This document shows, one piece after another, positions 1 to 36,783 of a DNA stretch of 44,051 nt. Made by a program: the position numbers and the translations under genes. Source of the stretch: a virus. Taxonomy: Duplodnaviria; Heunggongvirae; Uroviricota; Caudoviricetes. Position 1 is the stretch's first letter. The number at the start of each line of letters is the position of its first letter. The notes beneath the pieces are model-generated. The model worked only from the letters and a program-made list of their open reading frames with translations. It had not been told where the DNA came from and did not search any database. The DNA lies in IMG/VR virus record IMGVR_UViG_3300045988_124839; one strand, written 5' to 3'.

Positions 1-1
1 G

Positions 2-2284
2 CTGCAACAGGGTGGTCAGGTTAAGGACTCCTTCGGCGGGATGATCCCCATGTTCAGGGGGCTTGCCGGTGCGATCACCCTGCCGATGGTCGGGGCCACC
101 TCGCTGGCGGTGGCGACCGGTGCGCTGGCGTATGCCTGGTATCAGGGCAACTCAACCCTGTCCGATTTCAACAAAACGCTGGTCCTTTCCGGCAATCAGT
201 CGGGTCTGACGGCAGATCGTATGCTGGTCCTGTCCAGAGCCGGGCAGGCGGCAGGGCTGACGTTTAACCAGACCAGCGAGTCACTCAGCGCACTGGTTAA
301 GGCGGGAGTAAGCGGTGAGGCTCAGATTGCATCCATCAGCCAGAGTGTGGCGCGTTTCTCCTCTGCATCCGGCGTGGAGGTGGACAAGGTTGCTGAAGCC
401 TTCGGGAAGCTGACCACAGACCCGACGTCGGGGCTGACGGCGATGGCGCGCCAGTTCCATAACGTGACGGCGGAGCAGATTGCGTATGTCGCTCAGTTGC
501 AGCGTTCCGGCGATGAAGCCGGGGCATTGCAGGCGGCGAACGAGGCCGCAACGAAAGGGTTTGATGACCAGACCCGACGCCTGAAAGAGAACATGGGCAC
601 GCTGGAAACCTGGGCAGACAGGACAGCACGGGCATTCAAATCCATGTGGGATGCGGTGCTGGATATTGGTCGTCCTGATACCGCTCAGGAGATGCTGATT
701 AAGGCAGAGGCTGCGTTTAAGAAAGCAGACGACATCTGGAATCTGCGCAAGGATGATTATTTTGTTAACGATGAAGCGCGGGCGCGTTACTGGGATGATC
801 GTGAAAAGGCCCGTCTTGCGCTTGAAGCCGCCCGAAAGAAGGCTGAGCAGCAGACTCAACAGGACAAAAATGCGCAGCAGCAGAGCGATACCGAAGCGTC
901 ACGGCTGAAATATACCGAAGAGGCGCAGAAGGCTTACGAACGCCTGCAGACGCCGCTGGAGAAATATACCGCCCGTCAGGAAGAACTGAACAAGGCACTG
1001 AAAGACGGGAAAATCCTGCAGGCAGATTACAACACGCTGATGGCGGCGGCGAAAAAGGATTATGAAGCGACGCTGAAAAAGCCGAAGCAGTCCGGCGTGA
1101 AGGTGTCTGCGGGCGATCGTCAGGAAGACAGTGCTCATGCTGCCCTGCTGACGCTTCAGGCAGAACTCCGGACGCTGGAGAAGCATGCCGGAGCGAATGA
1201 GAAAATCAGCCAGCAGCGCCGGGATTTGTGGAAGGCGGAGAATCAGTTCGCGGTACTGGAGGAGGCGGCGCAACGTCGCCAGCTGTCTGCACAGGAGAAA
1301 TCCCTGCTGGCGCATAAAGATGAGACGCTGGAGTACAAACGCCAGCTGGCTGCACTTGGCGATAAGGTCACGTATCAGGAGCACCTGAATGCGCTGGCGC
1401 AGCAGGCGGATAAATTCGCACAGCAGCAACGGGCAAAACGGGCCGCCATTGATGCGAAAAGCCGGGGGCTGACTGACCGGCAGGCAGCGCGGGAAGCCAC
1501 TGAACAGCGCCTGAAGGAACAGTATGGCGATAATCCGCTGGCGCTGAATAACGTCATGTCAGAGCAGAAAAAGACCTGGGCGGCTGAAGACCAGCTTCGC
1601 GGGAGCTGGATGGCAGGCCTAAAGTCCGGCTGGAGTGAGTGGGAAGAGAGCGCCACGGACAGTATGTCTCAGGTTAAAAGTGCTGCCACGCAGACCTTTG
1701 ATGGTATTGCACAGAATATGGCGGCGATGCTGACCGGCAGTGAACAGAACTGGCGCAGCTTCACCCGTTCCGTGCTGTCCATGATGACAGAAATTCTGCT
1801 TAAGCAGGCAATGGTGGGGATTGTCGGGAGTATCGGCAGCGCCATTGGCGGTGCTGCCAGTGGTGGAGCATCAGCGTCAGGCGGTACAGCCATTCAGGCC
1901 GCTGCGGCGAAATTCCATTTTGCGACCGGGGGATTTACGGGAACCGGCGGCAAATATGAGCCAGCGGGGATTGTTCACCGTGGTGAATTTGTCTTCACAA
2001 AGGAGGCAACCAGCCGGATTGGCGTGGGGAATCTCTATCGGCTGATGCGCGGCTATGCCACCGGTGGTTATGTCGGTACACCGGGCAGTCTGGCTGACAG
2101 CCGGTCGCAGGCGTCCGGGACGTTTGAGCAGAATAACCATGTGGTGATTAACAACGACGGCACGAACGGGCAGATAGGGCCACAGGCACTGAAGGCTGTT
2201 TATGACGTAGCCCGTAAGGCGGCAATGGATGTTGTGACCGGGCAGATGCGCGATGGTGGTCTGTTCTCCGGAGGTGGACGATGA
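2..2284 (+). CDS. H: tail tape measure protein (lambda gpH-like), 5' end outside window
   Basis: Open frame continues to window edge with no upstream stop; Gly/Ala-rich C-terminus typical of gpH; directly precedes M-L-K-I-J in lambda order. Confidence 0.9.
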   Translation: MQQGGQVKDSFGGMIPMFRGLAGAITLPMVGATSLAVATGALAYAWYQGNSTLSDFNKTLVLSGNQSGLTADRMLVLSRAGQAAGLTFNQTSESLSALVKAGVSGEAQIASISQSVARFSSASGVEVDKVAEAFGKLTTDPTSGLTAMARQFHNVTAEQIAYVAQLQRSGDEAGALQAANEAATKGFDDQTRRLKENMGTLETWADRTARAFKSMWDAVLDIGRPDTAQEMLIKAEAAFKKADDIWNLRKDDYFVNDEARARYWDDREKARLALEAARKKAEQQTQQDKNAQQQSDTEASRLKYTEEAQKAYERLQTPLEKYTARQEELNKALKDGKILQADYNTLMAAAKKDYEATLKKPKQSGVKVSAGDRQEDSAHAALLTLQAELRTLEKHAGANEKISQQRRDLWKAENQFAVLEEAAQRRQLSAQEKSLLAHKDETLEYKRQLAALGDKVTYQEHLNALAQQADKFAQQQRAKRAAIDAKSRGLTDRQAAREATEQRLKEQYGDNPLALNNVMSEQKKTWAAEDQLRGSWMAGLKSGWSEWEESATDSMSQVKSAATQTFDGIAQNMAAMLTGSEQNWRSFTRSVLSMMTEILLKQAMVGIVGSIGSAIGGAASGGASASGGTAIQAAAAKFHFATGGFTGTGGKYEPAGIVHRGEFVFTKEATSRIGVGNLYRLMRGYATGGYVGTPGSLADSRSQASGTFEQNNHVVINNDGTNGQIGPQALKAVYDVARKAAMDVVTGQMRDGGLFSGGGR

Positions 2285-2610
2285 AAACCTTCCGCTGGAA
2301 AGTGAAACCCGGTATGGATGTGGCTTCGGCCCCTTCCGTAAGAAAGGTGCGCTTTGGTGATGGCTATTCCCAGCGTGCGCCTGCCGGGCTGAACGCTGAT
2401 CTGAAAACGTACAGCGTGACGCTTTCTGTTCCCCGTTGGGAGGCCACAGCGCTGGAGTCGTTTCTGGCTGAGCACGGGGGCTGGAAAGCCTTTCTGTGGA
2501 CGCCGCCTTATGAGTGGCGGCAGATAAAGGTGACCTGCGCAAAATGGTCGTCGCGGGTCAGTATGCTGCGTGTTGAGTTCAGCGCAGAGTTTGAACAGGT
2601 GGTGAACTGA
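2281..2610 (+). CDS. M: minor tail protein M
   Basis: 109 aa, N-terminus MKTFRWKVKPGMDVAS matches lambda gpM as recalled; ATGA overlap with H stop. Confidence 0.93.
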   Translation: MKTFRWKVKPGMDVASAPSVRKVRFGDGYSQRAPAGLNADLKTYSVTLSVPRWEATALESFLAEHGGWKAFLWTPPYEWRQIKVTCAKWSSRVSMLRVEFSAEFEQVVN

Positions 2611-3308
2611 TGCAGGATATCCAACAGGAAACACTGAATGAATGCACCCGTGCGGAGCAGTCGGCCAGCGTGGTGCTCTGGGAAATCGATCTGACAGAGG
2701 TCGGTGGAGAGCGTTATTTTTTCTGTAATGAGCAGAACGAAAAAGGTGAGCCGGTCACCTGGCAGGGGAGGCAGTATCAGGCGTATCCCATTCAGGGGAG
2801 CGGTTTTGAACTGAATGGCAAAGGCACCAGTACGCGGCCCACGCTGACGGTTTCTAACCTGTACGGTATGGTCACCGGGATGGCGGAAGATCTGCAGAGT
2901 CTGGTCGGCGGAACGGTGGTCCGGCGTAAGGTTTACGCCCGTTTTCTGGATGCGGTGAACTTCGTCAACGGAAACAGAGACGCCGATCCGGAGCAGGAGG
3001 TGATCAGCCGCTGGCGCATCGAGCAGTGCAGCGAACTGAGCGCGGTCAGTGCCTCTTTTGTACTGTCCACACCGACGGAAACGGATGGCTCTGTTTTTCC
3101 GGGGCGTATCATGCTGGCCAACACCTGCACCTGGACCTATCGCGGCGATGAGTGCGGTTATAGCGGTCCGGCGGTCGCGGATGAATATGACCAGCCGACG
3201 TCCGATATCACGAAGGATAAATGCAGCAAATGCCTGAGCGGCTGTAAGTTTCGCAATAACGTCGGCAACTTTGGCGGCTTCCTTTCCATTAACAAACTTT
3301 CGCAGTAA
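2610..3308 (+). CDS. L: minor tail protein L
   Basis: 232 aa, lambda gpL-like; start overlaps M stop (TGATG); conserved position. Confidence 0.93.
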   Translation: MQDIQQETLNECTRAEQSASVVLWEIDLTEVGGERYFFCNEQNEKGEPVTWQGRQYQAYPIQGSGFELNGKGTSTRPTLTVSNLYGMVTGMAEDLQSLVGGTVVRRKVYARFLDAVNFVNGNRDADPEQEVISRWRIEQCSELSAVSASFVLSTPTETDGSVFPGRIMLANTCTWTYRGDECGYSGPAVADEYDQPTSDITKDKCSKCLSGCKFRNNVGNFGGFLSINKLSQ

Positions 3309-3313
3309 ATCCC

Positions 3314-4057
3314 ATGACAGAGACAGAATCAGCGATTCTGGCGCATGCCCGGCGATGTGCGCCAGCGGAGTCGTGCGGCTTCGTGGTGAGAGCGCCGGAG
3401 GGGGAAAGATATTTCCCCTGCGTGAATATCTCCGGTGAGCCGGAGGATTATTTCCGGATGGCTCCGGAGGACTGGCTGCAGGCAGAGATGCAGGGTGAGA
3501 TTGTGGCACTGGTCCACAGTCATCCCGGTGGTCTGCCCTGGCTGAGTGAGGCTGACCGGCGGCTGCAGGTGCAGAGTGATTTGCCGTGGTGGCTGGTCTG
3601 CCGGGGGGCGATTCACAAGTTCCGCTGTGTGCCGCATCTCACCGGGCGGCGCTTTGAGTACGGGGTGACAGACTGTTACACACTGTTCCGGGATGCTTAC
3701 CATCTGGCGGGGATTGAGATGCCGGATTTTCATCGCGGGGATGACTGGTGGCGTCACGGTCAGAATCTCTATCTTGACAATATGGAGGCGACTGGTTTTT
3801 ACCGTGTCGCACTGACAGAGGCGCAGCCTGGCGACGTGCTGCTGTGCTGCTTTGGTTCATCGGTGCCGAATCATGCCGCCATTTACTGTGGTGATGGCGA
3901 GCTGCTGCACCATATTCCTGAACAACTGAGTAAACGAGAGAGGTATACCGACAAATGGCAGCGACGCACACACTCCCTCTGGCGTCACCGGGCATGGCGC
4001 GCATCTGCCTTTACGGGGATTTACAACGATTTGGCCGCCGCATCGACCTTCGTGTGA
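3314..4057 (+). CDS. K: tail tip assembly protein K (JAB/MPN-like HSHPGG motif)
   Basis: Lambda gpK-like sequence with HSHPGG metal-binding motif; start uncertain, an internal Met at 3458 would give a 199-aa product; 3' end overlaps I. Confidence 0.82.
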   Translation: MTETESAILAHARRCAPAESCGFVVRAPEGERYFPCVNISGEPEDYFRMAPEDWLQAEMQGEIVALVHSHPGGLPWLSEADRRLQVQSDLPWWLVCRGAIHKFRCVPHLTGRRFEYGVTDCYTLFRDAYHLAGIEMPDFHRGDDWWRHGQNLYLDNMEATGFYRVALTEAQPGDVLLCCFGSSVPNHAAIYCGDGELLHHIPEQLSKRERYTDKWQRRTHSLWRHRAWRASAFTGIYNDLAAASTFV

Positions 4058-4626
4058 AAACGGGGGCTGAAGCCATCCGCGCACTGGCCACACAGCTCCC
4101 GGCGTTTCGTCAGAAACTGAGCGACGGCTGGTATCAGGTACGGATTGCCGGGCGGGATGTCAGCACGTCCGGATTAACGGCGCAGTTACATGAGACTCTG
4201 CCTGATGGCGCTGTGATTCATATTGTTCCCAGAGTCGCCGGGGCCAAGTCAGGTGGTGTATTCCAGATTGTCCTGGGAGCTGCCGCCATTGCCGGATCAT
4301 TCTTTACTGCCGGAGCCACCCTTGCAGCATGGGGGGCAGCCATTGGGGCCGGTGGTATGACCGGCATCCTGTTTTCTCTCGGTGCCAGTATGGTGCTCGG
4401 TGGTGTGGCGCAGATGCTGGCACCGAAAGCCAGAACTCCCCGTACACAGACAACGGATAACGGCAAACAGAACACCTATTTCTCCTCACTGGATAACATG
4501 GTTGCCCAGGGCAATGTTTTGCCTGTTCTGTACGGTGAAATGCGTGTGGGGTCGCGGGTAGTTTCTCAGGAGATCAGCACGGCAGACGAAGGGGACGGTG
4601 GTCAGGTTGTGGTGATTGGTCGCTGA
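3955..4626 (+). CDS. I: tail assembly protein I
   Basis: 223 aa, begins MAATHTLPLASPGMARICLYGDLQRFGRRIDL as lambda gpI; Gly/Ala-rich hydrophobic C-terminus. Confidence 0.9.
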   Translation: MAATHTLPLASPGMARICLYGDLQRFGRRIDLRVKTGAEAIRALATQLPAFRQKLSDGWYQVRIAGRDVSTSGLTAQLHETLPDGAVIHIVPRVAGAKSGGVFQIVLGAAAIAGSFFTAGATLAAWGAAIGAGGMTGILFSLGASMVLGGVAQMLAPKARTPRTQTTDNGKQNTYFSSLDNMVAQGNVLPVLYGEMRVGSRVVSQEISTADEGDGGQVVVIGR

Positions 4627-4686
4627 TGCAAAATGTTTTATGTGAAACCGCCTCCGGGCGGTTTTGTCGTTTATGGAGCATGACGA

Positions 4687-7600
4687 ATGGGTAAAGGCAG
4701 CAGTAAGGGGCATACCCCGCGCGAAGCGAAGGATAACCTGAAATCCACGCAGTTACTGAGTGTGATCGATGCCATCAGCGAAGGGCCGATTGAAGGTCCG
4801 GTGGATGGATTAAAAAGCGTGCTGCTGAACAGTACGCCGGTGCTGGACAGTGAGGGGAATACCAATATATCCGGTGTCACGGTGGTGTTCCGGGCAGGTG
4901 AGCAGGAGCAGACACCGCCGGAGGGATTTGAATCCTCCGGTTCCGAGACGGTGCTGGGTACGGAAGTGAAATATGACACGCCGATCACCCGGACCATCAC
5001 GTCGGCAAACATCGACCGTCTGCGCTTTACCTTCGGTGTGCAGGCACTGGTGGAAACCACCTCAAAGGGGGACAGGAATCCATCGGAAGTCCGCCTGCTG
5101 GTTCAGATACAGCGTAACGGTGGCTGGGTGACAGAAAAAGACATCACCATTAAGGGCAAAACCACCTCGCAGTATCTGGCCTCGGTGGTGGTGGATAACC
5201 TGCCGCCGCGCCCGTTTAATATCCGGATGCGCAGGATGACGCCGGACAGCACCACAGACCAGCTGCAGAACAAAACGCTCTGGTCGTCATACACCGAAAT
5301 CATCGATGTGAAACAGGGCTACCCGAACACGGCACTGGTCGGCGTACAGGTGGATTCGGAGCAGTTCGGCAGCCAGCAGGTGAGCCGTAATTATCATCTT
5401 CGCGGGCGCATTCTGCAGGTGCCGTCGAACTATAACCCGCAGACGCGGCAATACAGCGGTATCTGGGACGGGACGTTTAAACCGGCATACAGCAACAACA
5501 TGGCCTGGTGTCTGTGGGATATGCTGACCCATCCGCGCTACGGCATGGGGAAACGTCTTGGTGCGGCGGATGTGGATAAATGGGCGCTGTATGTCATCGG
5601 CCAGAATTGCGACCAGTCGGTGCCGGACGGCTTTGGCGGCACGGAGCCGCGCATCACCTGTAACGCTTACCTGACCACACAGCGCAAGGCGTGGGATGTG
5701 CTCAGTGATTTCTGCTCGGCGATGCGCTGTATGCCGGTATGGAACGGGCAGACGCTGACGTTCGTGCAGGACCGGCCGTCGGATAAGGTGTGGACCTATA
5801 ACCGCAGTAATGTGGTGATGCCGGATGATGGCGCGCCGTTCCGCTACAGTTTCAGCGCCCTGAAGGACCGCCATAATGCCGTTGAGGTGAACTGGATTGA
5901 CCCGAACAACGGCTGGGAGACGGCGACAGAGCTTGTTGAAGATACGCAGGCCATTCTCCGTTACGGTCGTAACGTCACGAAGATGGACGCCTTTGGCTGT
6001 ACCAGCCGGGGGCAGGCACACCGCGCCGGGCTGTGGCTGATTAAAACAGAACTGCTGGAAACGCAGACCGTGGATTTCAGCGTCGGCGCAGAAGGGCTTC
6101 GCCATGTGCCGGGCGATGTCATTGAAATCTGTGATGATGACTATGCCGGTATCAGCACCGGTGGTCGCGTGCTGGCGGTGAACAGCCAGACCCGGACGCT
6201 GACGCTCGACCGTGAAATCACGCTGCCATCCTCCGGTACCACGCTGATAAGCCTGGTTGACGGAAGTGGCAATCCGGTCAGCGTGGAGGTTCAGTCCGTC
6301 ACCGACGGCGTGAAGGTAAAAGTGAGCCGTGTTCCTGACGGTGTTGCTGAATACAGCGTATGGGGGCTGAAGCTGCCGACGCTGCGCCAGCGACTGTTCC
6401 GCTGCGTGAGTATCCGTGAGAACGACGACGGCACGTATGCCATCACCGCCGTGCAGCATGTGCCGGAAAAAGAGGCCATCGTGGATAACGGGGCGCACTT
6501 TGACGGCGAACAGAGTGGCACGGTGAACGGTGTCACGCCGCCAGCGGTGCAGCACCTGACCGCAGAAGTCACTGCAGACAGCGGGGAATATCAGGTGCTG
6601 GCGCGATGGGACACACCGAAGGTGGTGAAGGGCGTGAGCTTCCTGCTCCGTCTGACCGTAACAGCGGACGACGGCAGTGAGCGGCTGGTCAGCACGGCCC
6701 GGACGACGGAAACCACATACCGCTTCACGCAACTGGCGCTGGGGAACTACAGGCTGACAGTCCGGGCGGTAAATGCGTGGGGGCAGCAGGGAGATCCGGC
6801 GTCGGTATCGTTCCGGATTGCCGCACCGGCAGCACCGTCGCGGATTGAGCTGACGCCGGGCTATTTTCAGATAACCGCAACGCCGCATCTTGCCGTTTAT
6901 GATCCGACGGTACAGTTTGAGTTCTGGTTCTCGGAAAAGCGGATTACGGATATCAGGCAGGTTGAAACCAGCGCACGTTATCTTGGTACGGCGCTGTACT
7001 GGATAGCCGCCAGTATCAATATCAAGCCGGGCCATGATTATTATTTTTACATCCGCAGTGTGAACACCGTTGGCAAATCGGCATTCGTGGAGGCTGTCGG
7101 TCGGGCGAGCGATGATGCAGAAGGTTACCTGGATTTTTTCAAAGGCCAGATAACCGAATCCCATCTCGGCAAGGAGCTGCTGGAAAAAGTCGACCTGACG
7201 GAGGATAACGCCAGCAGACTGGATGAGTTTTCGAAAGAGTGGAAAGATGCCAACGATAAATGGAATGCCATGTGGGGCGTCAAAATTGAGCAGACCAAAG
7301 ACGGCAAACATTATGTCGCGGGGCTTGGCCTCAGCATGGAGGATACGGAGGAAGGCAAACTGAGTCAGTTCCTGGTTGCCGCTAACCGTATCGCGTTTAT
7401 TGACCCGGCAAACGGGAATGAAACGCCGATGTTTGTGGCGCAGGGCAACCAGATATTCATGAATGAAGTGTTCCTGAAATATCTGACGGCTCCCACCATT
7501 ACCAGCGGCGGTAATCCTCCGGCATTTTCCCTGACACCGGACGGGCGGCTGACGGCAAAAAATGCCGATATCAGCGGTAACGTGAATGCGAACTCCGGGA

Positions 7601-8082
7601 CGCTCAACAACGTCACGATTAACGAGAACTGCCGGGTTCTGGGAAAACTGTCCGCGAACCAGATTGAAGGCGATCTCGTTAAAACAGTGGGCAAAGCTTT
7701 CCCCCGGGACTCCCGTGCACCGGAACGGTGGCCATCAGGGACCATTACCGTCAGGGTTTATGACGATCAGCCGTTTGACCGGCAAATTGTTATTCCAGCG
7801 GTGGCTTTCAGCGGTGCCAGACATGAACGGGAGAATAGCGATACTTATTCGTCATGCCGCCTGATAGTGAAGAAAAACGGGGCTGAAATTTATAACCGAA
7901 CGGCTCTGGATAATACTCTGATTTACACGGGTGTTATTGATATGCCTGCAGGCAGTGGCGTAATGACACTGGAGTTTTCGGTATCAGCATGGTGGGTAAA
8001 TGGCTGGTATCCCACAGCAAGTATCAGCGATTTGCTGGTTGTGGTGATGAAGAAAGCCACCGCAGGCATCAGTATCAGCTGA
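4687..8082 (+). CDS. J: host specificity / central tail fiber protein J
   Basis: 1131 aa, lambda gpJ-like over most of its length; C-terminal ~150 aa diverged from lambda J. Confidence 0.95.
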
Positions 8083-11479: not shown

Positions 11480-12520
11480 ATGGCTACATCGACAGTAATT
11501 CCTGATGACATCAAAACGCTAAAATCCGATGTTAGCAAATTAAAAAACGATCAAGGGAGCTACGCAACAAAATCATATGTAGACAATAAAACAACATGGA
11601 ATAGTTATTGCAATGTAATCTATGATCAAAAGACATTGCCGACCACTGGAACTATATTTAGCGGTAAGATTCACTTGTCAAATAAGACAGGAGAAACCGA
11701 AAACGCTTATAGTGAGATGTACACCAGAAAAAATATTGACGGTACAAAAGATACAATGACAAGGATTGTCACACACAATGGAACAAAAGGTATCTTTTGG
11801 GATTTTAGCGATCTTTACGGCGGAACATTAATTTTTCCAGGCAGTGATGGTTACCTTAAGATGGGGAACTGTCTCATGTCGTATGGTGTGCGGGGAAGTA
11901 ACGCGCTTATTAAGTTTGACTGCACAGACACATTACAAATCAAATATGCCAATCATGGGTCAACCATGACATTAAACACACAGGGGACCGCTCATTCTGG
12001 CGCTACTACTAGTTTGTGGGGTAACTCTACCCGTCCGGTTGTATATGAAGTTGGTGCTGATGGTGGCGCGTATATGTTCTATGCGCAGAAAAATACCGAT
12101 AACACCTATATGTTAAGCGTTAATGGTGCATGTCATGCCACCGCATTTAACCAGCATTCCGACCGGGATCTGAAAGACAACATTCAGGTGATCGATAATG
12201 CAACCGACCGCATCCGTAAAATGAACGGCTATACATACACGCTTAAAGAAAACGGTATGCCCTATGCAGGTGTCATTGCACAGGAAGCTCTGGAAGCAAT
12301 CCCAGAAGTTGTAGGTTCCGCAATGAAATATCAGGACGGTGCAAGCGGATCGGAAGGTGAAGAAGGTGAACGTTATTACACAGTAGATTATTCTGGTGTT
12401 ACTGGCTTGCTTGTTCAGGTAGCCAGAGAGTCAGACGACAGAATAACAGTACTGGAAGAAGAAAACGCAGAATTAAGGCAAAGATTATCTGCAATTGAGG
12501 CGACGCTTGCGTCTAAATAA
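11480..12520 (+). CDS. tail fiber / tail spike protein with C-terminal intramolecular chaperone (peptidase S74-like) domain
   Basis: C-terminal motif SDRDLKDNIQVIDNATDRIRKMNGYTY...YAGVIAQEALEAIPEVV typical of the autoproteolytic chaperone-of-endosialidase domain, followed by a coiled-coil tail; RBS GAGGAAGAATA before ATG. Confidence 0.72.
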   Translation: MATSTVIPDDIKTLKSDVSKLKNDQGSYATKSYVDNKTTWNSYCNVIYDQKTLPTTGTIFSGKIHLSNKTGETENAYSEMYTRKNIDGTKDTMTRIVTHNGTKGIFWDFSDLYGGTLIFPGSDGYLKMGNCLMSYGVRGSNALIKFDCTDTLQIKYANHGSTMTLNTQGTAHSGATTSLWGNSTRPVVYEVGADGGAYMFYAQKNTDNTYMLSVNGACHATAFNQHSDRDLKDNIQVIDNATDRIRKMNGYTYTLKENGMPYAGVIAQEALEAIPEVVGSAMKYQDGASGSEGEEGERYYTVDYSGVTGLLVQVARESDDRITVLEEENAELRQRLSAIEATLASK

Positions 12521-18146: not shown

Positions 18147-18683
18147 GCAGCCACCTCGCGCACCGGAATACGGGCAGACAATACCAGGACAAACCGGCTG
18201 GCAAACTGGCGACGAGCTTCCCGTTCAGATGACGCGATGGTGGAAAGATGATGGATGTGTGACTTTTTGTCTGTGCGAACGATTGCCGCAAATTTGAATT
18301 TGAACATGGTATGCACTCCGTTTAATTGGTCGTGCTACCACCAGAGTTCCTACGCTCTATATGGCGGTAGCCCAGACGGGGGTAGGAATACCGGTAAACG
18401 AAGAAACCGGCCAGCTAAAAGCTGCCCCATCTGAGCCACCATAAATTTGGTGTACGCAGATTTTACACACAAAAAAACACGCTGGCGCGTGTTGTGCGCT
18501 TCATTTACTCGGGTTCCTACGCCCGGCTACGGGATTTACCGTAGCGGAGTAAACTTTACCGTCAAAACGACGCGCACGTCAATAATTTGCAAAGACATTT
18601 TACCCCGTGACCAGTCACGGGGACAGGTGTTTTTATAGTTTGCTTGAACGAGTGATCAGAAGTTGATCGTTAATCAAAGGCCA

Positions 18684-22900: not shown

Positions 22901-23907
22901 GTGGCAGATTTCCGGTCATTATCCAGTGCGCAGGTGATTTTTGCCGCCGGGTACATGTTTACCAGTTGTTCCACAACATGAACCATGTTGTTAGCGGATA
23001 CAGCGACAACCACAGCGTCAAAGCGTTTATCTTTTTTCGTGGCAAGCCAGATGGATGCACCAGTAGCAAAACCTTCTGTAACAGCGATGTTTTGCGCCCC
23101 TTTCAGCTCACCGATAACAAAGCAGGCACCGACGAAATCGCCGCTGGTTACTGCGCTGGTCTGGTATTTCCCACCTTGTTTGTCGATTCGCTGCCAACCC
23201 ACAATACGACCATCATAACGACCGTCCAGGTGAGCCAGAGGGATAGCCATATATGTGGTTGGCCCCCGGCTCCATTTCGCACTGTCGTGACTGGTCACGC
23301 GACGCACATCACATGAACTAAAAACGTCACGAATACCTTTTTTAATCGCATATGGCCATGAGCCGTCTTCAGCCGGAGCATGTTCCCACGCGCTGTGGAA
23401 TGCCAGCCATCCCAGCAAACGTTCATGGTCCATTTGGTTGTTTTTCAGGTCATTAATTCGTTTTTGTTCTTCACGGCGACGACGTGCTTCGGCCTGACGT
23501 TCTATTCTTTCCCGTTCTTCTTCCGGTTGTGCGACCACGGTCGCATTATTCCGTTGTTGCTCACGGCGATATTCAGAAAACAGGAAGGAGAAACCGCTCC
23601 ATGAGCCAGCATCGCTGCCTTTATGGACGAAGTTAATGAACGGGTAATCAATCCCTTTGCTGTGTTCCAGCCTGGAGTAAATTTCTACGCGTCCTTTCAG
23701 GCTCTTTTCGAGAGCTTCTGGAGATGTTTTATTGTATGAAGAGTAACGCTCACCCCCCCCGCGAGGGTTGAGTTGGATGTTGTCGGAACAGGCAGGCCAG
23801 TTGATACCAGCCATCTGTGCCAGCTCGGTTAGTTCATCCCGTGCTGCTTCAATTAGCGAGAACGGATCGCTGCCAAAGCGATCCGCATAGAAATCGTTTA
23901 ATGTCAT
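19912..23907 (-). CDS. repA: replication protein RepA (primase-helicase)
   Basis: 1331 aa; Walker A GMGSGKST; size and position (leftward, between telN and cB) as N15 RepA (about 1320 aa). Confidence 0.85.
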   Translation of the reverse strand: MTLNDFYADRFGSDPFSLIEAARDELTELAQMAGINWPACSDNIQLNPRGGGERYSSYNKTSPEALEKSLKGRVEIYSRLEHSKGIDYPFINFVHKGSDAGSWSGFSFLFSEYRREQQRNNATVVAQPEEERERIERQAEARRRREEQKRINDLKNNQMDHERLLGWLAFHSAWEHAPAEDGSWPYAIKKGIRDVFSSCDVRRVTSHDSAKWSRGPTTYMAIPLAHLDGRYDGRIVGWQRIDKQGGKYQTSAVTSGDFVGACFVIGELKGAQNIAVTEGFATGASIWLATKKDKRFDAVVVAVSANNMVHVVEQLVNMYPAAKITCALDNDRKSATEGKGNTGLRTGYEILSKFNDVRCVYPTFEDDPQMECSDFNDLHKLRGLRETARQLFATANRLKTGTDLLSLTLNRLKTIKRDNRRTFAKELLRAVDIGMLTCPVPNSPSDLFNMFCIVLREMGLENIYRATVKDHIARRLNKKCRIAQAPRSFSERITDPNKRPQHITYKRFETSVMTDDVLKYVQSLQGIVIVRAGMGSGKSTGLLRPLMHSSERGISVAHRVSLIGGLWEMMTEGKGVKADILHYQDPGYQEMAPYASKLTICINSIVKNCWQPLMRQHDYFGFDEATQGLRAVLSGRAMENPVAVFNTLIDALARTEQHPIMVDADANDLLVDLAELAMKRREELGLPAWLQIHVIELPVDVRNRETGEPIRVFYTEKDRIMTEVVKAVSDGEKIMLATDSSTFAEDVTATLRMHFPGKKFLCVNQKNKPEPEVEAFTNQPKKMVKKYDGLIYSPSISSGVSIEQKHFDRHFGMFCGEVVPSDAVQMLRRDRTAKEFIIGFDKARAKRETDPQKIERAFAQALLATAGMNGELTDVVFDGDRISMGVANTDFTRMKIKAAAIEATARNDYASNMICIMHSDGYKVSPLATDYAANDIGKDLRKEARDIVWEQTLDLHLNTETPQESEREELLKKRALTLEEQAKLVRWDIENELKLPVEEGTLKFYFDGARDKIRRYETMLLDEVTARRYDREEAAINFTYAYRQAGQWQYFVVTAMTREQADDVFKTKFPGIIDHKVKATPTVEVGARGFYALKSATLRQYFIDCGINPETMTGEATQERLKFARDNLMTAERRDLLNNVLHIGGFMTPKGKPKVPEALFKNICDSLGLKTGKRRGRDGDKRPTLRFVEPESAAFMLDILVQRQKDGLTLKTRKAEKTAIEMDRDLDLNIYMDDKTRSTNEQVQNAPHSVISEALAVLPVAVPESWAMSALSSEELATMSSWSSASIAMTFASLYLTEFMDHLSSNELRRLREYITGNSSCSYEEQGAFYG

Positions 23908-25769: not shown

Positions 25770-26015
25770 ATGTTCAGGAAACCGTCGAAGCCAGAATTAA
25801 GGTATTCGGGGGTAAGAAATGAATATGTTATCTGGTGTCCAACTTGTGGTTACAGGACACGACCAGATAGTAATAAGCAGTCTGTAATTGCCGATTGGTA
25901 TTTATCAAATCAGCCAGGTAATAAGCATATAGAAAATCTTTGGATTAAGCGTTACTTGGAAATCAGAGAGGGTGCGACCGTGGTCGCACAAGAAAATGAA
26001 AATAACGCCATTTAA
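25770..26015 (+). CDS. small zinc-ribbon-like protein
   Basis: From the internal ATG at 25770; CPTCGY motif; the 3' end contains centromere-like palindrome 1. Confidence 0.35.
   Translation: MFRKPSKPELRYSGVRNEYVIWCPTCGYRTRPDSNKQSVIADWYLSNQPGNKHIENLWIKRYLEIREGATVVAQENENNAI
25972..25989. other. SopB-binding-like centromere palindrome 1 (GTGCGACC-GT-GGTCGCAC)
   Basis: 8-bp inverted arms around a 2-bp centre, same architecture as the F sopC core TGGGACC-AC-GGTCCCA; one of four copies in the window. Confidence 0.7.
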
Positions 26016-30983: not shown

Positions 30984-31001
30984 GTGCGACCACGGTCGCA
31001 C
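30984..31001. other. SopB-binding-like centromere palindrome 2 (GTGCGACC-AC-GGTCGCAC)
   Basis: Same 8-2-8 palindrome as site 1 with the centre inverted; about 20 bp upstream of a putative promoter. Confidence 0.7.
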
Positions 31002-33662: not shown

Positions 33663-33974
33663 ATGAAAATTTATATTGCCGGGCCAATGACGGGATATGA
33701 GAACTTTAATCGTGACGCCTTTAATAAAGAGGCAGATCGTTTGTCACGACATGGTCACTCTGTCTTGAATCCAGCCACTTTGCCTAATGGTCTGACACAA
33801 CGTGAATACATGGATATTTGCTTTGCAATGCTTCGTTGTGCTGATGCTATTTTGATGCTTCCTGGCTGGAAAGCGTCTGCTGGAGAAACTGCTGAGTATC
33901 ATTACGCATACAAGATGGAGATGCAGGTATTCACTACGCTGAATTACCCGCCAGCTTGTTCCTCTGTAGCATAA
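33663..33974 (+). CDS. DUF4406-family protein (nucleoside 2-deoxyribosyltransferase-like fold)
   Basis: MKIYIAGPMTGYENFNR...NPA...CDAILMLPGWKAS.G pattern characteristic of DUF4406. Confidence 0.6.
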   Translation: MKIYIAGPMTGYENFNRDAFNKEADRLSRHGHSVLNPATLPNGLTQREYMDICFAMLRCADAILMLPGWKASAGETAEYHYAYKMEMQVFTTLNYPPACSSVA

Positions 33975-33993: not shown

Positions 33994-34011
33994 TTGCGAC
34001 CGTGGTCGCAC
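33994..34011. other. SopB-binding-like centromere palindrome 3 (TTGCGACC-GT-GGTCGCAC)
   Basis: 8-2-8 palindrome with one mismatch at the first base. Confidence 0.65.
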
Positions 34012-34021
34012 ATTAAATACC

Positions 34022-34193
34022 GCGCTGCATCGTCGCCGTATTTCCGCATTAACCATGACCGTAGCCCGACGGGGAACTCCTCTGCGCGAGTGTGCGGAAA
34101 TAATCAAAAACGATGCACACCGGGTTTTTACCGCGCTAATGATTCGCGGGTTTGTCCCTCATGCTCGCCAGTCCTGTGCGAGGGTGGAAGAAA
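34022..34193. repeat. 172-bp direct repeat, copy A (conserved lambdoid intergenic element)
   Basis: About 85% identical to copy B at 35807-35978, with shared blocks CCGTAGCCCGACGGGGAACTCC and ATAATCAAAAACGATGCACACCGGGTTTTTACCGCG; lies between palindromes 3 and 4. Confidence 0.8.
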
Positions 34194-34213
34194 CAGGGCA
34201 TGTATTCAGGAGC

Positions 34214-34231
34214 GTGCGACCGTGGTCGCAC
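34214..34231. other. SopB-binding-like centromere palindrome 4 (GTGCGACC-GT-GGTCGCAC)
   Basis: Perfect copy of the site-1 sequence, 23 bp upstream of the cassette gene start. Confidence 0.7.
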
Positions 34232-34254
34232 GGTATCTTTGTCAGGAGGTTTTG

Positions 34255-35115
34255 ATGAAAGAGTTGCAAAAAATTAATTCAATAATGGAAAGGTTAAGTG
34301 CTCTTGAGCGTAAGCTGGACGATTGTGGAAAGCTGTGTGTTGAAAAGCAAAATGAGCTTTACCGGGAATTTTTTACAATCGTAAGTGAGCTGATGCCAAT
34401 TGTTAATAACTGCCTGATGACATCCAGATTTTTTAATGTCGATGCTACTACATCCAGAAAATTTTCTGTGAAAATTCAAGAAAGAGTTTCTGGTAGTGTG
34501 ACAAGAGAGATGGCTGAACAGTTGGTGGCAATGAGCAATAAAACAAAAAGAAAAAAGGCATTGCTTGTAACAGCAAATCAGCTTTCAGGGCGCGTTGACT
34601 TTCAGGTCAGACAGGGTGGGCGTGTACTGGTAAATGATGCGTTCGTTGGACGTAGCTTTAGTCCGTACTCGATGAAATATGATGTTGATGCAGATGATCA
34701 GGATATCAGTATTTCTTGGAAATCTGAGACAGCAGGGATCGTATTAACAGCAGAGTTGTTGAGTGATGATAAAAATGATGTCCGGCATCATTTGGACGAA
34801 AAGAATCATATTTCTGAAATCTGTATGAAACCACGTAGTGGAATGACTTTATTGTCGCGAACTCTTGCTGCTGGCTTTTCTTTACCGGAGAAACGTGTGC
34901 TTCTGGTAGTGCCTGAAGATGCAGATATTCGACCACTGAATGGCTGTGATGTTATTAGTGCAAAAACATTGCATACCAGAATCATGCCTGTACCTGATGT
35001 GGTCATCATTGATGATATTGAGAAATGCAAATCTGTTTCCTCAACTGCCATAATCAAACGAATTTTACGTTGTAGCTCGTCGGCTGTTGTATTCCGGAAG
35101 CAGTTACATAACTAA
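34255..35115 (+). CDS. hypothetical protein (286 aa) of AT-rich accessory cassette
   Basis: Strong RBS AGGAGG 7 nt before ATG at 34255; N-terminal coiled-coil; no recognisable catalytic motif; ORF-track entry 33994-35115 is an upstream TTG extension through palindrome 3. Confidence 0.6.
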   Translation: MKELQKINSIMERLSALERKLDDCGKLCVEKQNELYREFFTIVSELMPIVNNCLMTSRFFNVDATTSRKFSVKIQERVSGSVTREMAEQLVAMSNKTKRKKALLVTANQLSGRVDFQVRQGGRVLVNDAFVGRSFSPYSMKYDVDADDQDISISWKSETAGIVLTAELLSDDKNDVRHHLDEKNHISEICMKPRSGMTLLSRTLAAGFSLPEKRVLLVVPEDADIRPLNGCDVISAKTLHTRIMPVPDVVIIDDIEKCKSVSSTAIIKRILRCSSSAVVFRKQLHN

Positions 35116-35240
35116 CCAGTTTTGTTTTGCAGAACATCCTCAATTAAAAGCTTATAGAAAGAGAGCCTGAGATATTTTTTCTGTCTCTCGTAGTTGTTTA
35201 TTTTTTTTTCGAACAGGCTTACAACTTACAGGATATAAAT

Positions 35241-35690
35241 ATGCAAGAAGAAGCAAATAAAATTCTTGTTGATTTATTGAAGAAGGCCAGCGATGGAATT
35301 GATTCCGCCATTGCATTCAGTCAGGCTCAGATTCCGGATGTTGTTCATCAGTTGCTGGTATGGAATATGGTTGATAGCCTGATTAAAACATTAATAGCCA
35401 TTTCAACAATCCCGCTGGTTTTCTGGTTTATGAAGAAACAGTACCAAAAAGTTGAAATTGGTAAGTTCGATGATGAAGGATGGTCATGGGATAAGGGGAA
35501 GACTAAATACAAACCGACTATGATTTGGGAAAGTAACGGTGAGATTAGTTTTCTAATCTTACCATTAGCTGCAGTTTTTGTTCTGTGGGTAAGTTTTATT
35601 ATTGCTGTAGTAACCAATATGACATGGTTAAAAATTTGGCTGGCACCTAAGTTATATCTAATCGAATACGCAGCATCACTAATTACATAG
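35241..35690 (+). CDS. membrane protein (149 aa, two transmembrane segments) of accessory cassette
   Basis: Hydrophobic segments LIKTLIAISTIPLVFWF and ISFLILPLAAVFVLWVSFIIAVV; AT-rich; follows the 286-aa gene on the same strand. Confidence 0.55.
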   Translation: MQEEANKILVDLLKKASDGIDSAIAFSQAQIPDVVHQLLVWNMVDSLIKTLIAISTIPLVFWFMKKQYQKVEIGKFDDEGWSWDKGKTKYKPTMIWESNGEISFLILPLAAVFVLWVSFIIAVVTNMTWLKIWLAPKLYLIEYAASLIT

Positions 35691-35806
35691 TCCATTACAA
35701 AAGCCATTCGCTACTGAGTGGCTTTGATAATGGCTTATACCCTACACGGGATAACTTAACTGATATCCCTTTTAACGGATAAAGGTATTCAAGCCTGACA
35801 CATCAT

Positions 35807-35978
35807 GCGCTGTATCGTCGCCGTATTCCCGTATTAACAGAGACCGTAGCCCGACGGGGAACTCCTTCTGCGCGAGTGTGCGGGAATAATCAAAAACGAT
35901 GCACACCGGGTTTTTACCGCGTTTATGGTGCGCGATTTTGTCCCTCATAGTCGCCCGTCCGGTGCGATGGTGGAAGAA
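35807..35978. repeat. 172-bp direct repeat, copy B (adjacent to cos)
   Basis: Direct repeat of 34022-34193; ends about 70 bp upstream of the cosN-like sequence. Confidence 0.8.
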
Positions 35979-36009
35979 GCCGGATATTAATGCAAGTGAT
36001 AATTATTCT

Positions 36010-36237
36010 CACCTTTGCGGGTCCTTTCCGGCGATCCGGCAGGCTACGGGGCGGAAGGCGCGCGGGTTTTCGCTATTTATGAAAATTTTCCGGTTTAAGG
36101 CGTTTCCGTTCTTCTTCGCCGTAACTTAATGTTTTTATTTAAAACACCCCCTGAAAAGAAAGGAAACGACAGATGCTGAAAACGGGCTTTTTGGCCTCTG
36201 TCGTTTCCTTTCTCTGTTTTTGTCCGTGGAATGAACA
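36010..36237 (+). other. cos: cos region (cosQ/cosN/cosB-like) upstream of Nu1
   Basis: ...GGGTCCTTTCCGGCGATCCGGCAGGCTACG / GGGCGGAAGGCG / CGCGGGTTTTCGCTATTTATGAAAATTTTCCGG... is near-identical to the lambda right-end/left-end junction as recalled, except inside the 12-nt cosN position (36049-36060). Confidence 0.75.
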
Positions 36238-36757
36238 ATGGAAGTCAACAAAAAGCAGCTGGCTGATATTTTCGGTGCGAGTATCCGTACCATTCAGAAC
36301 TGGCAGGAGCAGGGAATGCCCGTTCTGCGAGGCGGTGGCAAGGGTAATGAGGTGCTTTATGATTCTGCCGCCGTCATAAAATGGTATGCCGAAAGGGATG
36401 CTGAAATTGAGAACGAAAAGCTGCGCCGGGAGGTTGAAGAACTGCGGCTGGCCAGCGAGGCAGATCTTCACCCCGGAACACTTGAATTTGAGCGCCATCG
36501 CCTGACCCGTGCTCAGGCGACGGCGCAGGAACTGAAAAATGCCAAAGAATCGGCTGAAGTGGTGGAAACCGCATTCTGTACTTTCGTGCTGTCGCGTATA
36601 GCAAGGGAAATATCCAGTATTCTCGACGGTATTCCTCTGTCGGTGCAGCGACGTTTTCCTGAGCTGGATAACCGGCATATTGATTTCCTGAAACGGGATA
36701 TCATCAAAGCCATGAACAAAGCAGCCGCGCTGGATGAACTGATACCGGGGTTGCTGA

Positions 36758-36783
<26 letters not shown>
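36238..36783 (+). CDS. Nu1: terminase small subunit Nu1
   Basis: 181 aa; MEVNKKQLADIFGASIRTIQNWQEQGMPV... matches lambda gpNu1 as recalled. Confidence 0.95.

What the first reader, a model, noticed from the sequence alone, without database searches (positions are those of the whole stretch)
34022..35978. 172-bp direct repeats bracketing the cassette: probable lambdoid linker sequence and recombination scar
Copies A (34022-34193) and B (35807-35978) are about 85% identical and in the same orientation. I recall a very similar block in lambda between bor and the right-end genes. Two copies flanking foreign low-GC DNA suggest the cassette entered by homologous recombination at this conserved element and could be lost the same way. 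The element may also carry a promoter or RNA structure.
Basis: partly seen in the sequence, partly recalled or inferred. Interest (0 to 1): 0.6.

Follow-up and report, generated by a model that had tools for sequence, protein, structure and literature searches.

The report
Conserved lambdoid junction element, duplicated around cassette
The two repeats are copies of an unannotated 178-base non-coding element found between the lysis and DNA-packaging genes of most E. coli lambda-like phages; here they bracket a two-gene insert that relatives have lost by recombination between the copies, and the element itself appears to fold as a conserved RNA.

Summary
Copy A (34022-34198) and copy B (35807-35984) are direct repeats, 87.6% identical with one 1-nt indel. 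They are two alleles of a non-coding element ("E"). E occurs in lambda (about 46.87-47.03 kb), phage 21, Stx phages and K-12 DLP12 (between borD and ybcV). It is present in 4587 of 5426 complete E. coli genomes and is always unannotated. Homology stops at both edges of E, and unrelated left and right flanks are reassorted across it. Close relatives lack the 1.6-kb low-GC cassette and carry a single hybrid A/B copy, with at least four different crossover positions. B copies in relatives carry A-type patches. These patterns indicate homologous recombination, not site-specific recombination. N15 itself lacks E. Lambda's bor promoter lies inside its E copy, but its hexamers are destroyed here. E matches no Rfam family, yet + strand helices show compensatory changes. 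Ten A/B substitutions hit paired positions and break at most one pair. Its RNA function is unknown. Copy A is bracketed by two N15-type SopB centromere sites.

The parts
34022..34198 (+). Element E, copy A. It is left-truncated relative to the widespread block and has no upstream extension.
   Evidence: 214.5 bits. Homology to other phages begins exactly at 34022.
35807..35984 (+). Element E, copy B. Model helices: P1 35811-35818/35896-35903; P2 35824-35834/35878-35888; P3 35850-35852/35857-35859; H3 35917-35921/35931-35935; S1 35950-35954/35964-35968; S2 35959-35963/35979-35983 (pseudoknot with S1).
   Evidence: (209.1 bits).
35692..35806 (+). Left extension of the widespread block, present only before copy B. 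It holds an extended hairpin (35692-35733) and a terminator-like hairpin GGGATA-N10-TATCCC followed by TTTT (35748-35773).
   Evidence: It is shared by 67 of 86 contexts. Hairpin 1 changes by compensatory swaps, GCCAC/GTGGC, GCCCA/TGGGC and GACCA/TGGTC.
33995..34010 (+). N15-type SopB centromere site (IR), TGCGACCGTGGTCGCA, 11 nt left of copy A.
   Evidence: 5 sites in the window, 0.38 expected. It is identical to the core of N15 IR1/IR4 (PMC7205306 Table 4).
34215..34230 (+). Second SopB centromere site, 16 nt right of copy A and in the same orientation as the first.
34255..35115 (+). Cassette gene 1, orf286 (PHROG 2571, function unknown).
   Evidence: No Pfam, NCBIfam, PADLOC or PDB match. 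Homologues occur only in E. coli. The AF2 model has pLDDT 58.
35241..35690 (+). Cassette gene 2, orf149 (PHROG 3054, function unknown, hydrophobic segments).
33663..33974 (+). DUF4406 (nucleoside 2-deoxyribosyltransferase-like) gene, the last gene before copy A.
   Evidence: (E = 4.5e-33).
36010..36783 (+). Lambda-type cos region and terminase small subunit Nu1 (36238-36783), immediately right of copy B.
   Evidence: Annotated as such in relatives.

Best explanation
A and B are two diverged alleles of one non-coding element, E. E is about 178 nt long, or about 295 nt with its upstream hairpin extension. In the E. coli lambdoid phage gene pool it sits between the lysis cassette (with its trailing accessory genes) and the packaging genes, always in the sense of late transcription. 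Because E is shared by phages whose flanking DNA is unrelated, it acts as a patch of homology where RecA or phage recombinases exchange the lysis-side and packaging-side modules. In this N15-like plasmid-prophage lineage two alleles have been brought together around a low-GC two-gene insert (orf286 and orf149). The unit E_A-cassette-E_B can therefore be joined to any E-bearing genome by a single crossover in either copy. It can also be lost by a crossover between the copies, which removes 1785 bp and leaves one hybrid E. Independently of this role, E most likely encodes a structured segment of the late mRNA. The model has a 5' domain closed by two long-range helices (P1, P2), a short terminator-like hairpin (H3) and a 3' pseudoknot (S1/S2). 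I infer that this RNA acts in cis on the late transcript, in processing, stability or coupling between lysis and packaging genes, but this function is not shown. Shown here: the repeats, their distribution, the sharp edges, the flank reassortment, the hybrid junctions and gene-conversion patches, and the compensatory substitutions. Inferred: the direction of events (loss versus gain), the recombination enzymes, and any RNA function.
For: Distribution: E is in 424 phage records and 4587 of 5426 E. coli genomes, with a median of 2 and up to 11 copies and nothing annotated over it. It is present in lambda/HK630, 933W-type phages, phage 1717, phage 21 and K-12 DLP12 at 579010-579174.
Junction behaviour: only 3-13 of 86 contexts share sequence beyond either edge. 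There are 27 left/right flank combinations among 189 copies. Genome matches begin at 34022 or end at 35978-35986.
Recombination between the copies: empty sites L004, L005, L278 and L097 carry A's left flank, B's right flank and one hybrid copy. Their switch points are at 34193/34195, 34098-34136, a mosaic pattern, and 34056-34080. Two of these fall in the two longest identical runs, 37 and 24 bp. L006 carries the reciprocal hybrid, B-left/A-right. B copies of PhiR46_1, YDC107_1 and pG749_3 carry A-type patches. The 12% divergence, and the fact that A-type and B-type alleles occur singly in other phages, show that the pair is not an in-situ duplication.
RNA structure: 37 modelled pairs are 97.1% paired, against 93.5% in shuffles (0/500) and 33-61% when partners are slid. 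Seven pairs and 55 cells carry double changes, against 3-13 cells when slid. One-sided changes are G-U on the + strand only. Between A and B, 10 substitutions hit paired columns, leaving 0 and 1 broken pairs; random placement gives a mean of 6.8 broken, and 0 of 20000 simulations did as well. With a structure trained without this lineage the result holds at P = 0.0023.
Not coding: indels are frequent and no ORF is conserved.
Against: Single-sequence folding energies are not better than shuffles (z = -0.94 and -0.98). The alignment contains few independent lineages (effective sequence number 1.42), so the covariation may rest on only about 7-8 events. The right half is not fixed. Lambda-type and type-ii copies lack H3, and the viable phage 21 lacks 16 nt that include S1 and half of S2. 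An alternative helix (columns 126-130 with 145-149) also covaries. E is absent from N15, phi80 and Gifsy-1 and was detected only in E. coli and E. albertii, so it is not required by lambdoid phages in general. No transcript data were examined. The direction of events cannot be decided from sequence: an empty site followed by insertion fits as well as a two-copy form followed by deletion.
Confidence: 0.75

Rival explanations
1. E is only a passive patch of shared sequence with no function of its own. It persists because recombinants that cross over within it are viable. The apparent RNA structure is a by-product of a GC-rich sequence and a few linked haplotypes.
For: Folding energies are no better than shuffles. 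The effective sequence number is low. The right half is variable or deleted in viable phages. E is absent from N15, phi80 and Gifsy-1.
Against: Ten of the A/B substitutions fall on paired columns and break at most one pair. There are seven pairs with double changes. Wobble pairs work only on the + strand. A 178-nt block is retained in at least 27 different flank combinations and in 85% of E. coli genomes.
Confidence: 0.25
2. The element is a promoter, homologous to lambda's leftward bor promoter, and the repeats are two promoter copies driving leftward transcription.
For: HK630 annotates a minus-strand promoter inside the homologous block (L001 2514-2540). In lambda-type copies this reads TGGACA-15 nt-TACAAT, directed at bor.
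Against: In both window copies the hexamers read CGGTCT and TACGGC. The promoter scan finds nothing in either copy on either strand. There is no bor gene, and the DNA to the left of each copy encodes + strand genes. Phage 21 has bor next to a main-type E that lacks these hexamers.
Confidence: 0.04
3. The repeats are the ends of a site-specific mobile cassette (integron attC-like, transposon or MITE) that moves by a dedicated recombinase.
For: Direct repeats bracket foreign low-GC DNA.
Against: There is no recombinase or transposase in or beside the cassette. There are no terminal inverted repeats or target-site duplications (flanks). Junctions in empty sites lie at four different positions inside the repeat. 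The internal deletions in YDC107_1, L013 and L006 are unrelated to any fixed site.
Confidence: 0.03
4. The strand-specific structure acts in single-stranded DNA, for example as a priming or initiation signal during rolling-circle replication, rather than in RNA.
For: The structure is strand-specific, and no promoter or discrete transcript is evident.
Against: Conserved G-T 'wobbles' (pair 28:72 in 54 of 55 sequences, pair 7:95 in 41 of 55) are typical of RNA helices. The element always lies in the sense of the late operon. No such signal is known for lambda, to my knowledge.
Confidence: 0.05
5. The two copies arose by a tandem duplication in place and later diverged.
For: They are in the same orientation and close together.
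Against: The copies are 12% divergent while the rest of the locus is 97-98% identical among relatives. A-type and B-type allele blocks each occur as single copies in other phages. Only B carries the native upstream extension.
Confidence: 0.03

Closest known systems
Conserved boundary or 'linker' homology blocks of lambdoid phage mosaicism
   Same: A short conserved non-coding block lies at a module boundary, flanked by unrelated DNA, and the flanks are reassorted across it.
   Different: Here the exchange is documented at nucleotide level, with hybrid copies and gene-conversion patches. The block is also duplicated around a cassette. It carries signs of selection on an RNA fold, so it is probably not conserved merely as a linker.
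The lambda bor promoter region and the DLP12 borD-ybcV spacer
   Same: The DNA is homologous: lambda about 46868-47031 and K-12 579010-579174.
   Different: The promoter hexamers are specific to the lambda-type allele. The window copies lack them and there is no bor gene.
Deletion between direct repeats by homologous recombination (loop-out), as for duplicated segments in phage and plasmid genomes
   Same: The repeats share orientation and have identical runs of 37 and 24 bp. Natural derivatives lack exactly the 1785-bp interval and keep one hybrid copy.
   Different: The repeats are not a duplication of local DNA. They are two alleles of a pan-lambdoid element, so the same homology also links the cassette to other phages.
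Structured intercistronic RNA elements of phage polycistronic mRNAs (T7 RNase III sites, lambda sib, HK022 put; recalled from my own knowledge)
   Same: Non-coding, strand-specific helices in the sense of a long phage operon, placed between functional gene blocks.
   Different: There is no sequence or model similarity to any Rfam family. E is larger, at 178 nt with a probable pseudoknot. No processing or antitermination activity has been tested.
Known lambda small RNAs (OOP, 6S, LPR1/PreS, LPR2)
   Same: Phage-encoded non-coding RNA candidates in lambda.
   Different: LPR1/PreS lies between ea10 and ral. LPR2 and 6S lie near the start of the late operon (bioRxiv 10.1101/2024.10.31.621285). None maps to the bor-p78 spacer.

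Membership tests
Lambdoid module-junction homology block | The same block is present in many otherwise different lambdoid genomes. | tested here: met
   424 phage records and 4587 of 5426 E. coli genomes. Covariance-model hits in lambda-type, 933W-type, phage 1717, phage 21 and DLP12.
Lambdoid module-junction homology block | Homology ends sharply at both edges, and the flanks are reassorted. | tested here: met
   Coverage drops from 86 of 86 contexts to 3-13 of 86 at the edges. There are 12 left types, 11 right types and 27 combinations. Matches start at 34022 or end at 35978-35986.
Lambdoid module-junction homology block | Non-coding. | tested here: met
   A 1-nt indel is polymorphic, 14-16-nt indels occur, no ORF is conserved, and there is no Pfam or PHROG match for the ORFs that overlap E.
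Repeat-mediated (homologous) cassette deletion | Direct orientation, with identical runs long enough for RecA- or Red-type exchange. | tested here: met
   Both copies are on the + strand. The longest identical runs are 37 bp (34099-34135) and 24 bp (34057-34080), derived. The length threshold itself (about 23-27 bp for RecA) is recalled from my own knowledge.
Repeat-mediated (homologous) cassette deletion | Derivatives exist that lack exactly the inter-repeat interval and carry a hybrid repeat with variable crossover points. | tested here: met
   H113-115 and H119-120 span 1215 and 1030 bp, which is the query length minus 1786. Hybrid copies have four junction types.
Repeat-mediated (homologous) cassette deletion | Deletion is observed to arise in a population, and depends on recA or red. 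| not testable with these tools
   This needs PCR or long-read sequencing of lysogens.
Lambda bor promoter | -35 and -10 hexamers on the minus strand. | tested here: not met
   Lambda and HK630 read TGGACA-15-TACAAT. The window copies read CGGTCT...TACGGC. The scan returned no hit.
Lambda bor promoter | A bor gene lies immediately downstream (to the left). | tested here: not met
   Left of A is DUF4406 on the + strand. Left of B is orf149 on the + strand.
Described RNA family (Rfam 15) | Match to a curated covariance model. | tested here: not met
   There was no hit over E at gathering thresholds or at E <= 10.
Structured cis-acting RNA (generic) | Base pairs are maintained by compensatory change, specifically on one strand. 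| tested here: met
   The support is moderate because few independent lineages are represented.
Structured cis-acting RNA (generic) | Thermodynamic stability above that of shuffled sequence. | tested here: not met
   z = -0.94 (B) and -0.98 (A) on the + strand, and +0.85 on the - strand.
Structured cis-acting RNA (generic) | Transcribed, with defined ends or processing. | not testable with these tools
   No expression data are available here. Orientation in the late operon is the only indication.
Site-specific cassette (integron attC, transposon or MITE) | An associated recombinase, terminal inverted repeats or target duplication, and a fixed junction. | tested here: not met
N15 SopB centromere site (the 16-mers beside copy A) | A 16-bp inverted repeat identical to the core of N15 IR1-IR4. 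| tested here: met
   TGCGACC(GT/AC)GGTCGCA occurs 5 times against 0.38 expected. N15 IR1 and IR4 read GTGCGACCACGGTCGCAC (PMC7205306).

The most novel reading that the evidence does not exclude
E is a previously undescribed structured RNA family carried by lambda itself and by most E. coli lambdoid prophages (85% of complete E. coli genomes). It is a segment of about 180 nt in the late transcript, with two long-range helices and a 3' pseudoknot. On this reading it controls processing, stability or expression at the boundary between lysis and packaging genes, and its conservation for that function is what makes this site the recombination joint of the lambdoid gene pool.
Probability: 0.45. Interest if true: 0.7.

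Novelty: new member of a known kind. Interest (0 to 1): 0.5.

Why it matters
The locus gives a nucleotide-level example of how lambdoid phages and N15-like phage-plasmids swap accessory cassettes and whole modules. A short shared element serves as portable homology arms, and natural gain/loss intermediates and gene-conversion tracts are still visible. It also flags an unannotated, very common element of E. coli genomes, present in lambda and K-12, that carries the signature of a conserved RNA fold. If this is confirmed, it would add a cis-acting RNA to the late operon of the best-studied phage. It would also explain why this position is a mosaic joint. On the practical side, annotators currently place spurious ORFs across the element.

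Tried and rejected
1. Protein coding. ORFs overlapping E on either strand differ between A and B, are interrupted by the polymorphic 1-nt indel, and have no Pfam or PHROG match. A GTG-start ORF annotated at the 3' motif in phage 21 is not conserved.
2. Rfam. There was no hit at gathering thresholds or at E <= 10.
3. Promoter. See the membership test for the lambda bor promoter.
4. The YDC107_1 'other cassette'. It turned out to be the same cassette with an internal 829-bp deletion (34839-35667), so it is not an independent insert.
5. L127, with two E copies 6 kb apart. This is two late regions in tandem, not a cassette.
6. Wider taxonomic spread. A pattern scan of one genome per species found E only in E. 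coli and E. albertii. About 25 hits in unrelated taxa are identical to lambda and sit on contigs of about 3.5 kb or 48.4 kb, so they are lambda control-DNA contamination.
7. Cassette function. There were no family, defence-system or PDB matches and only near-identical E. coli homologues. The AF2 model had pLDDT 58, so I did not run a fold search.
8. Literature. Searches by sequence words and by borD/ybcV/sRNA returned nothing. Known lambda sRNAs map elsewhere. Ravin and Lane 1999 is not held in the library.
9. Chi site. B has GATGGTGG, a 7-of-8 match to Chi, but A and most alleles do not, so I did not pursue it.
Full report
**Observation.** The repeat finder gives 34022-34081 / 35807-35866 (90%) and 34081-34208 / 35867-35994 (85%), in register apart from one inserted T. 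A pairwise alignment and a covariance model delimit the homologous unit as 34022-34198 (copy A) and 35807-35984 (copy B). There are 21 substitutions and one indel in 178 columns, which is 87.6% identity. The DNA between the copies is low in GC, 0.33-0.44 against 0.53-0.56 in the repeats.

**Gene order.** The order on the + strand is: lysozyme, Rz, a DUF4406 gene (33663-33974), copy A, orf286 (34255-35115), orf149 (35241-35690), copy B, a lambda-type cos site, and Nu1 (36238-36783). The nearest records are N15-like (Ravinvirus) plasmid prophages of 45-47 kb, such as YDC107_1, PhiR46_1 and pG749_3.

**What the repeat is.** I call the unit E. It is not specific to this phage.
- Copy A with short flanks matches 424 phage records.
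- Copy B alone matches 4587 of 5426 complete E. coli genomes at 11,867 places, with a median of 2 and a maximum of 11 per genome. PGAP annotates nothing under the match.
- A covariance model built from 55 distinct copies finds E in lambda/HK630 (L001 2501-2664; the blastn match in a lambda record covers 46868-46973), 933W-type Stx phages, phage 1717, Stx1 phages, phage 21 and the K-12 cryptic prophage DLP12 at 579010-579174, between borD and ybcV.

E is not universal, however.
- N15 itself has none. At the corresponding place it has gp57 (DUF4406), a methylase, the centromere site IR4 and gp59.
- phi80 and Salmonella Gifsy-1 also lack it.
- A scan of one genome per species found genuine copies only in E. 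coli and E. albertii.

In every phage context annotated here E lies between the lysis cassette, plus whatever accessory genes follow it, and the packaging genes, on the late-transcript strand.

**Anatomy of the block.** In most phages the conserved block is longer on the left. Of 86 distinct 1.6-kb contexts, 67 share an extra 115 nt. This corresponds to window 35692-35806, which precedes copy B only. The extension holds two features.
- An extended hairpin whose stem changes by compensatory swaps (GCCAC/GTGGC, GCCCA/TGGGC, GACCA/TGGTC).
- A terminator-like hairpin, GGGATA-N10-TATCCC followed by TTTT.

Copy A lacks this extension. Its homology starts abruptly at 34022, 11 nt after a 16-bp inverted repeat.

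**E as a recombination joint.** Beyond either edge of E only 3-13 of the 86 contexts share any sequence with the window. I clustered the DNA 120-420 nt to the left and 20-320 nt to the right of 206 full-length copies. This gave 12 left types and 11 right types, in 27 combinations among 189 copies. In E. coli genomes many matches to the 3-kb locus begin exactly at query position 623 (= 34022). Others end at 2579-2587 (= 35978-35986). The whole unit E_A-cassette-E_B is therefore found attached to different lysis-side and packaging-side DNA. E is also internally mosaic: its left, middle and right sub-blocks occur in different allele combinations.

**Recombination between the two copies.** Close relatives (97-98% identical in the flanks) lack the cassette precisely.
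- Chromosomal prophages H113-115 span 1215 bp where the window has 3001.
- The N15-like plasmid pZ1323HEC0355-3 and a second chromosome span 1030 bp where the window has 2816. In both cases the difference is 1786 bp.

Each of these has A's left flank, including the left centromere site, then B's right flank (cos, Nu1), and a single copy of E that is a hybrid. I scored the sites that distinguish A from B.
- L097 switches from A-type to B-type between 34056 and 34080.
- L005 switches between 34098 and 34136.
- L278 is mosaic.
- L004 is A-type up to 34193 and then joins B's flank.

The intervals for L097 and L005 coincide with the two longest identical runs between the copies, 24 and 37 bp. L006 carries the reciprocal hybrid (B-left, A-right), followed by the right centromere site and a truncated orf286. 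In the two-copy relatives PhiR46_1, YDC107_1, L010 and pG749_3, the B copy carries patches of A-type alleles, which is the pattern expected from gene conversion.

Variable junctions inside the repeat, no recombinase gene, and no terminal inverted repeats or target duplications all argue for homologous exchange and against site-specific exchange. Sequence alone cannot tell deletion from insertion. I consider repeated deletion from one two-copy form the more economical reading, because a single parent explains all junction types.

The copies are not an in-situ duplication. They differ by 12% while the surrounding locus differs by 2-3%. Both allele types occur singly in other phages, and only B has the native extension.

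The YDC107_1 arrangement, which at first looked like a different cassette, is the same cassette with an internal deletion of 34839-35667.

**What E itself may do.** It is not a gene. The ORFs that cross it differ between the copies, are broken by a polymorphic 1-nt indel and by 14-16-nt indels, and match no protein family. It matches no Rfam family even at E <= 10.

HK630 annotates a minus-strand promoter inside the block. In lambda-type alleles this reads TGGACA-15 nt-TACAAT and faces bor. In both window copies the hexamers read CGGTCT and TACGGC. No promoter-like site is found in either copy, and there is no bor gene. Phage 21 has bor next to a main-type E that lacks those hexamers. The promoter is therefore a feature of one allele, not of the element.

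**Evidence for an RNA fold.** The + strand shows the signature of a conserved fold. RNAalifold on 55 distinct copies predicts three helices.
- P1: alignment columns 5-12 with 90-97.
- P2: columns 18-28 with 72-82.
- A helix joining CC[U/G]GU to A[A/C]C.GG at the 3' end.

The loop containing the first strand of that last helix is itself closed by a 5-bp stem (S1). S1 has four different sequences in different alleles: CUCGC/GCGRG, GUCGC/GCGAU, GCCGC/GCGGU and GCCAG/CUGGC. Together the two helices form an H-type pseudoknot.

On a 37-pair model, 97.1% of cells are standard pairs. Column shuffles give 93.5% (0 of 500 reach the observed value), and sliding the partners gives 33-61%. Seven pairs and 55 cells carry changes on both sides, against 3-13 cells when slid. 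Examples are 22:78 (C-G to U-A), 26:74 (U-G, C-G and G-C), 147:161 (C-G to A-U) and 156:178 (U-A in 27 sequences, G-C in 25, and 3 exceptions). One-sided changes are almost all G-U on the + strand and would be A-C mismatches on the other strand.

The two copies in this window are themselves informative. Ten of their 21 substitutions fall on paired columns, yet A has no broken pair and B has one. Random placement of the same substitutions breaks 6.8 pairs on average, and 0 of 20,000 trials did as well. With a structure derived only from 45 copies outside this lineage, six substitutions hit pairs and none breaks one (P = 0.0023).

**Evidence against an RNA fold.**
- Folding energies are not better than shuffles (z about -1).
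- The alignment holds few independent lineages (effective number 1.42).
- An alternative helix also covaries.
- The right half is variable. Lambda-type alleles lack hairpin H3. Phage 21, a viable phage, lacks 16 nt including S1 and half of S2.

The constant parts are the 5' domain (P1/P2/P3, about 100 nt) and the 3' motif GG(U/A)GGAAGAAAC(A/C)GGA. No start codon follows E at a fixed distance, so it is unlikely to be a leader that controls one particular gene. The known lambda small RNAs map elsewhere.

My working view is that E is a cis-acting structured segment of the late mRNA, involved in processing, stability or coupling at the lysis/packaging boundary. I give this roughly even odds. The function is inferred, not shown.

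**The 16-mers beside copy A.** TGCGACCGTGGTCGCA occurs at 33995 and 34215, bracketing copy A in the same orientation. It occurs three more times in the window, at 23530, 25973 and 30985, where 0.38 are expected by chance. It is identical to the core of the N15 centromere sites IR1 and IR4 (GTGCGACCACGGTCGCAC; PMC7205306 Table 4). It differs from the F sopC site TGGGACCACGGTCCCA at two symmetric positions (PMC3597684). These are therefore SopB-binding partition sites of the plasmid prophage. The empty-site relatives keep only the left one.

**The cassette.** orf286 and orf149 belong to PHROGs of unknown function. They have no Pfam, NCBIfam, PADLOC or PDB match, and orf286 has homologues only in E. 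coli. The AlphaFold model of orf286 is of low confidence (pLDDT 58), so I did not search it against fold libraries. No promoter-like site was found for the cassette.

**Verdict.** Module exchange through shared homology is a known principle, so this part is a well-documented new example, not a new mechanism. The part that could matter more is that the element is unannotated although present in lambda, K-12 and most E. coli genomes, and that it behaves like a conserved RNA structure absent from Rfam.

Noticed in passing
window 23530-23545, 25973-25988, 30985-31000, 33995-34010, 34215-34230: There are five copies of the N15-type SopB centromere site TGCGACC(GT/AC)GGTCGCA, one more than the four (IR1-4) described for N15. 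Two of them lie 220 bp apart around copy A. In the N15 record the homologous IR4 (45562-45577) is annotated as a 'rho-independent terminator' stem-loop.
   Followed up: partly
window 18360-18446 (-) and 18472-18545 (-): Rfam matches above gathering score to C4 antisense RNA (73.6 bits) and the isrK Hfq-binding RNA (62.5 bits), adjacent to each other. They probably belong to the immunity or anti-repressor control region of this phage-plasmid.
   Followed up: no
loci L217, L223, L226, L228, L236, L240, L247, L251, L254, L257, L265, L274 and others (genome-contig scan): About 25 genome assemblies of unrelated taxa (Cohnella, Pedobacter, Shewanella, Pseudomonas, Flavobacterium and others) contain an E copy identical to lambda (137.3 bits each). 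The copies sit on contigs of about 3.5 kb or 48.4 kb. This is almost certainly lambda control-DNA contamination. A 'Campylobacter phage CJLB-4' record also matches lambda Nu1 at 93%.
   Followed up: partly
L279 3685-3861 (-) (PhiR46_1 XSB42774.1); L005 1898-2119 (+) (WP_181206993.1); L283 2188-2325 (+) (phage 21 UMO75483.1): Public annotations place 'hypothetical protein' ORFs across or starting inside element E. These ORFs are not conserved between alleles and are probably spurious.
   Followed up: partly
window 34055-34255 (+), ending in TGATG at 34253-34257: An open frame runs through copy A and the right centromere site and stops one base into the ATG of orf286. A GTG within the conserved 3' motif of E (GGUGGAAGAAAC) is in this frame, so a short upstream ORF could couple translation into orf286. 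The frame is not open in copy B beyond 6 codons.
   Followed up: partly
L127 (IMG/VR contig), 1-7991: Two late regions lie in tandem: Rz, E, a cos-like remnant, then a NanS-like esterase, DUF826, lysozyme, Rz, Rha, a second E and cos. This looks like a hybrid of two prophages.
   Followed up: partly
L049 (IMG/VR) and similar loci: One E variant is cut after about 70 nt (at ...CTGCGCGAGC) and joined to a SopB centromere site and then cos. This is another arrangement in which a partition site abuts E.
   Followed up: no
window 36157-36213: A 26-nt inverted repeat (88% complementary, 5-nt spacer) lies between cos and Nu1. It corresponds to the lambda cosB region (terminase-binding R sites, recalled from my own knowledge).
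   Followed up: no
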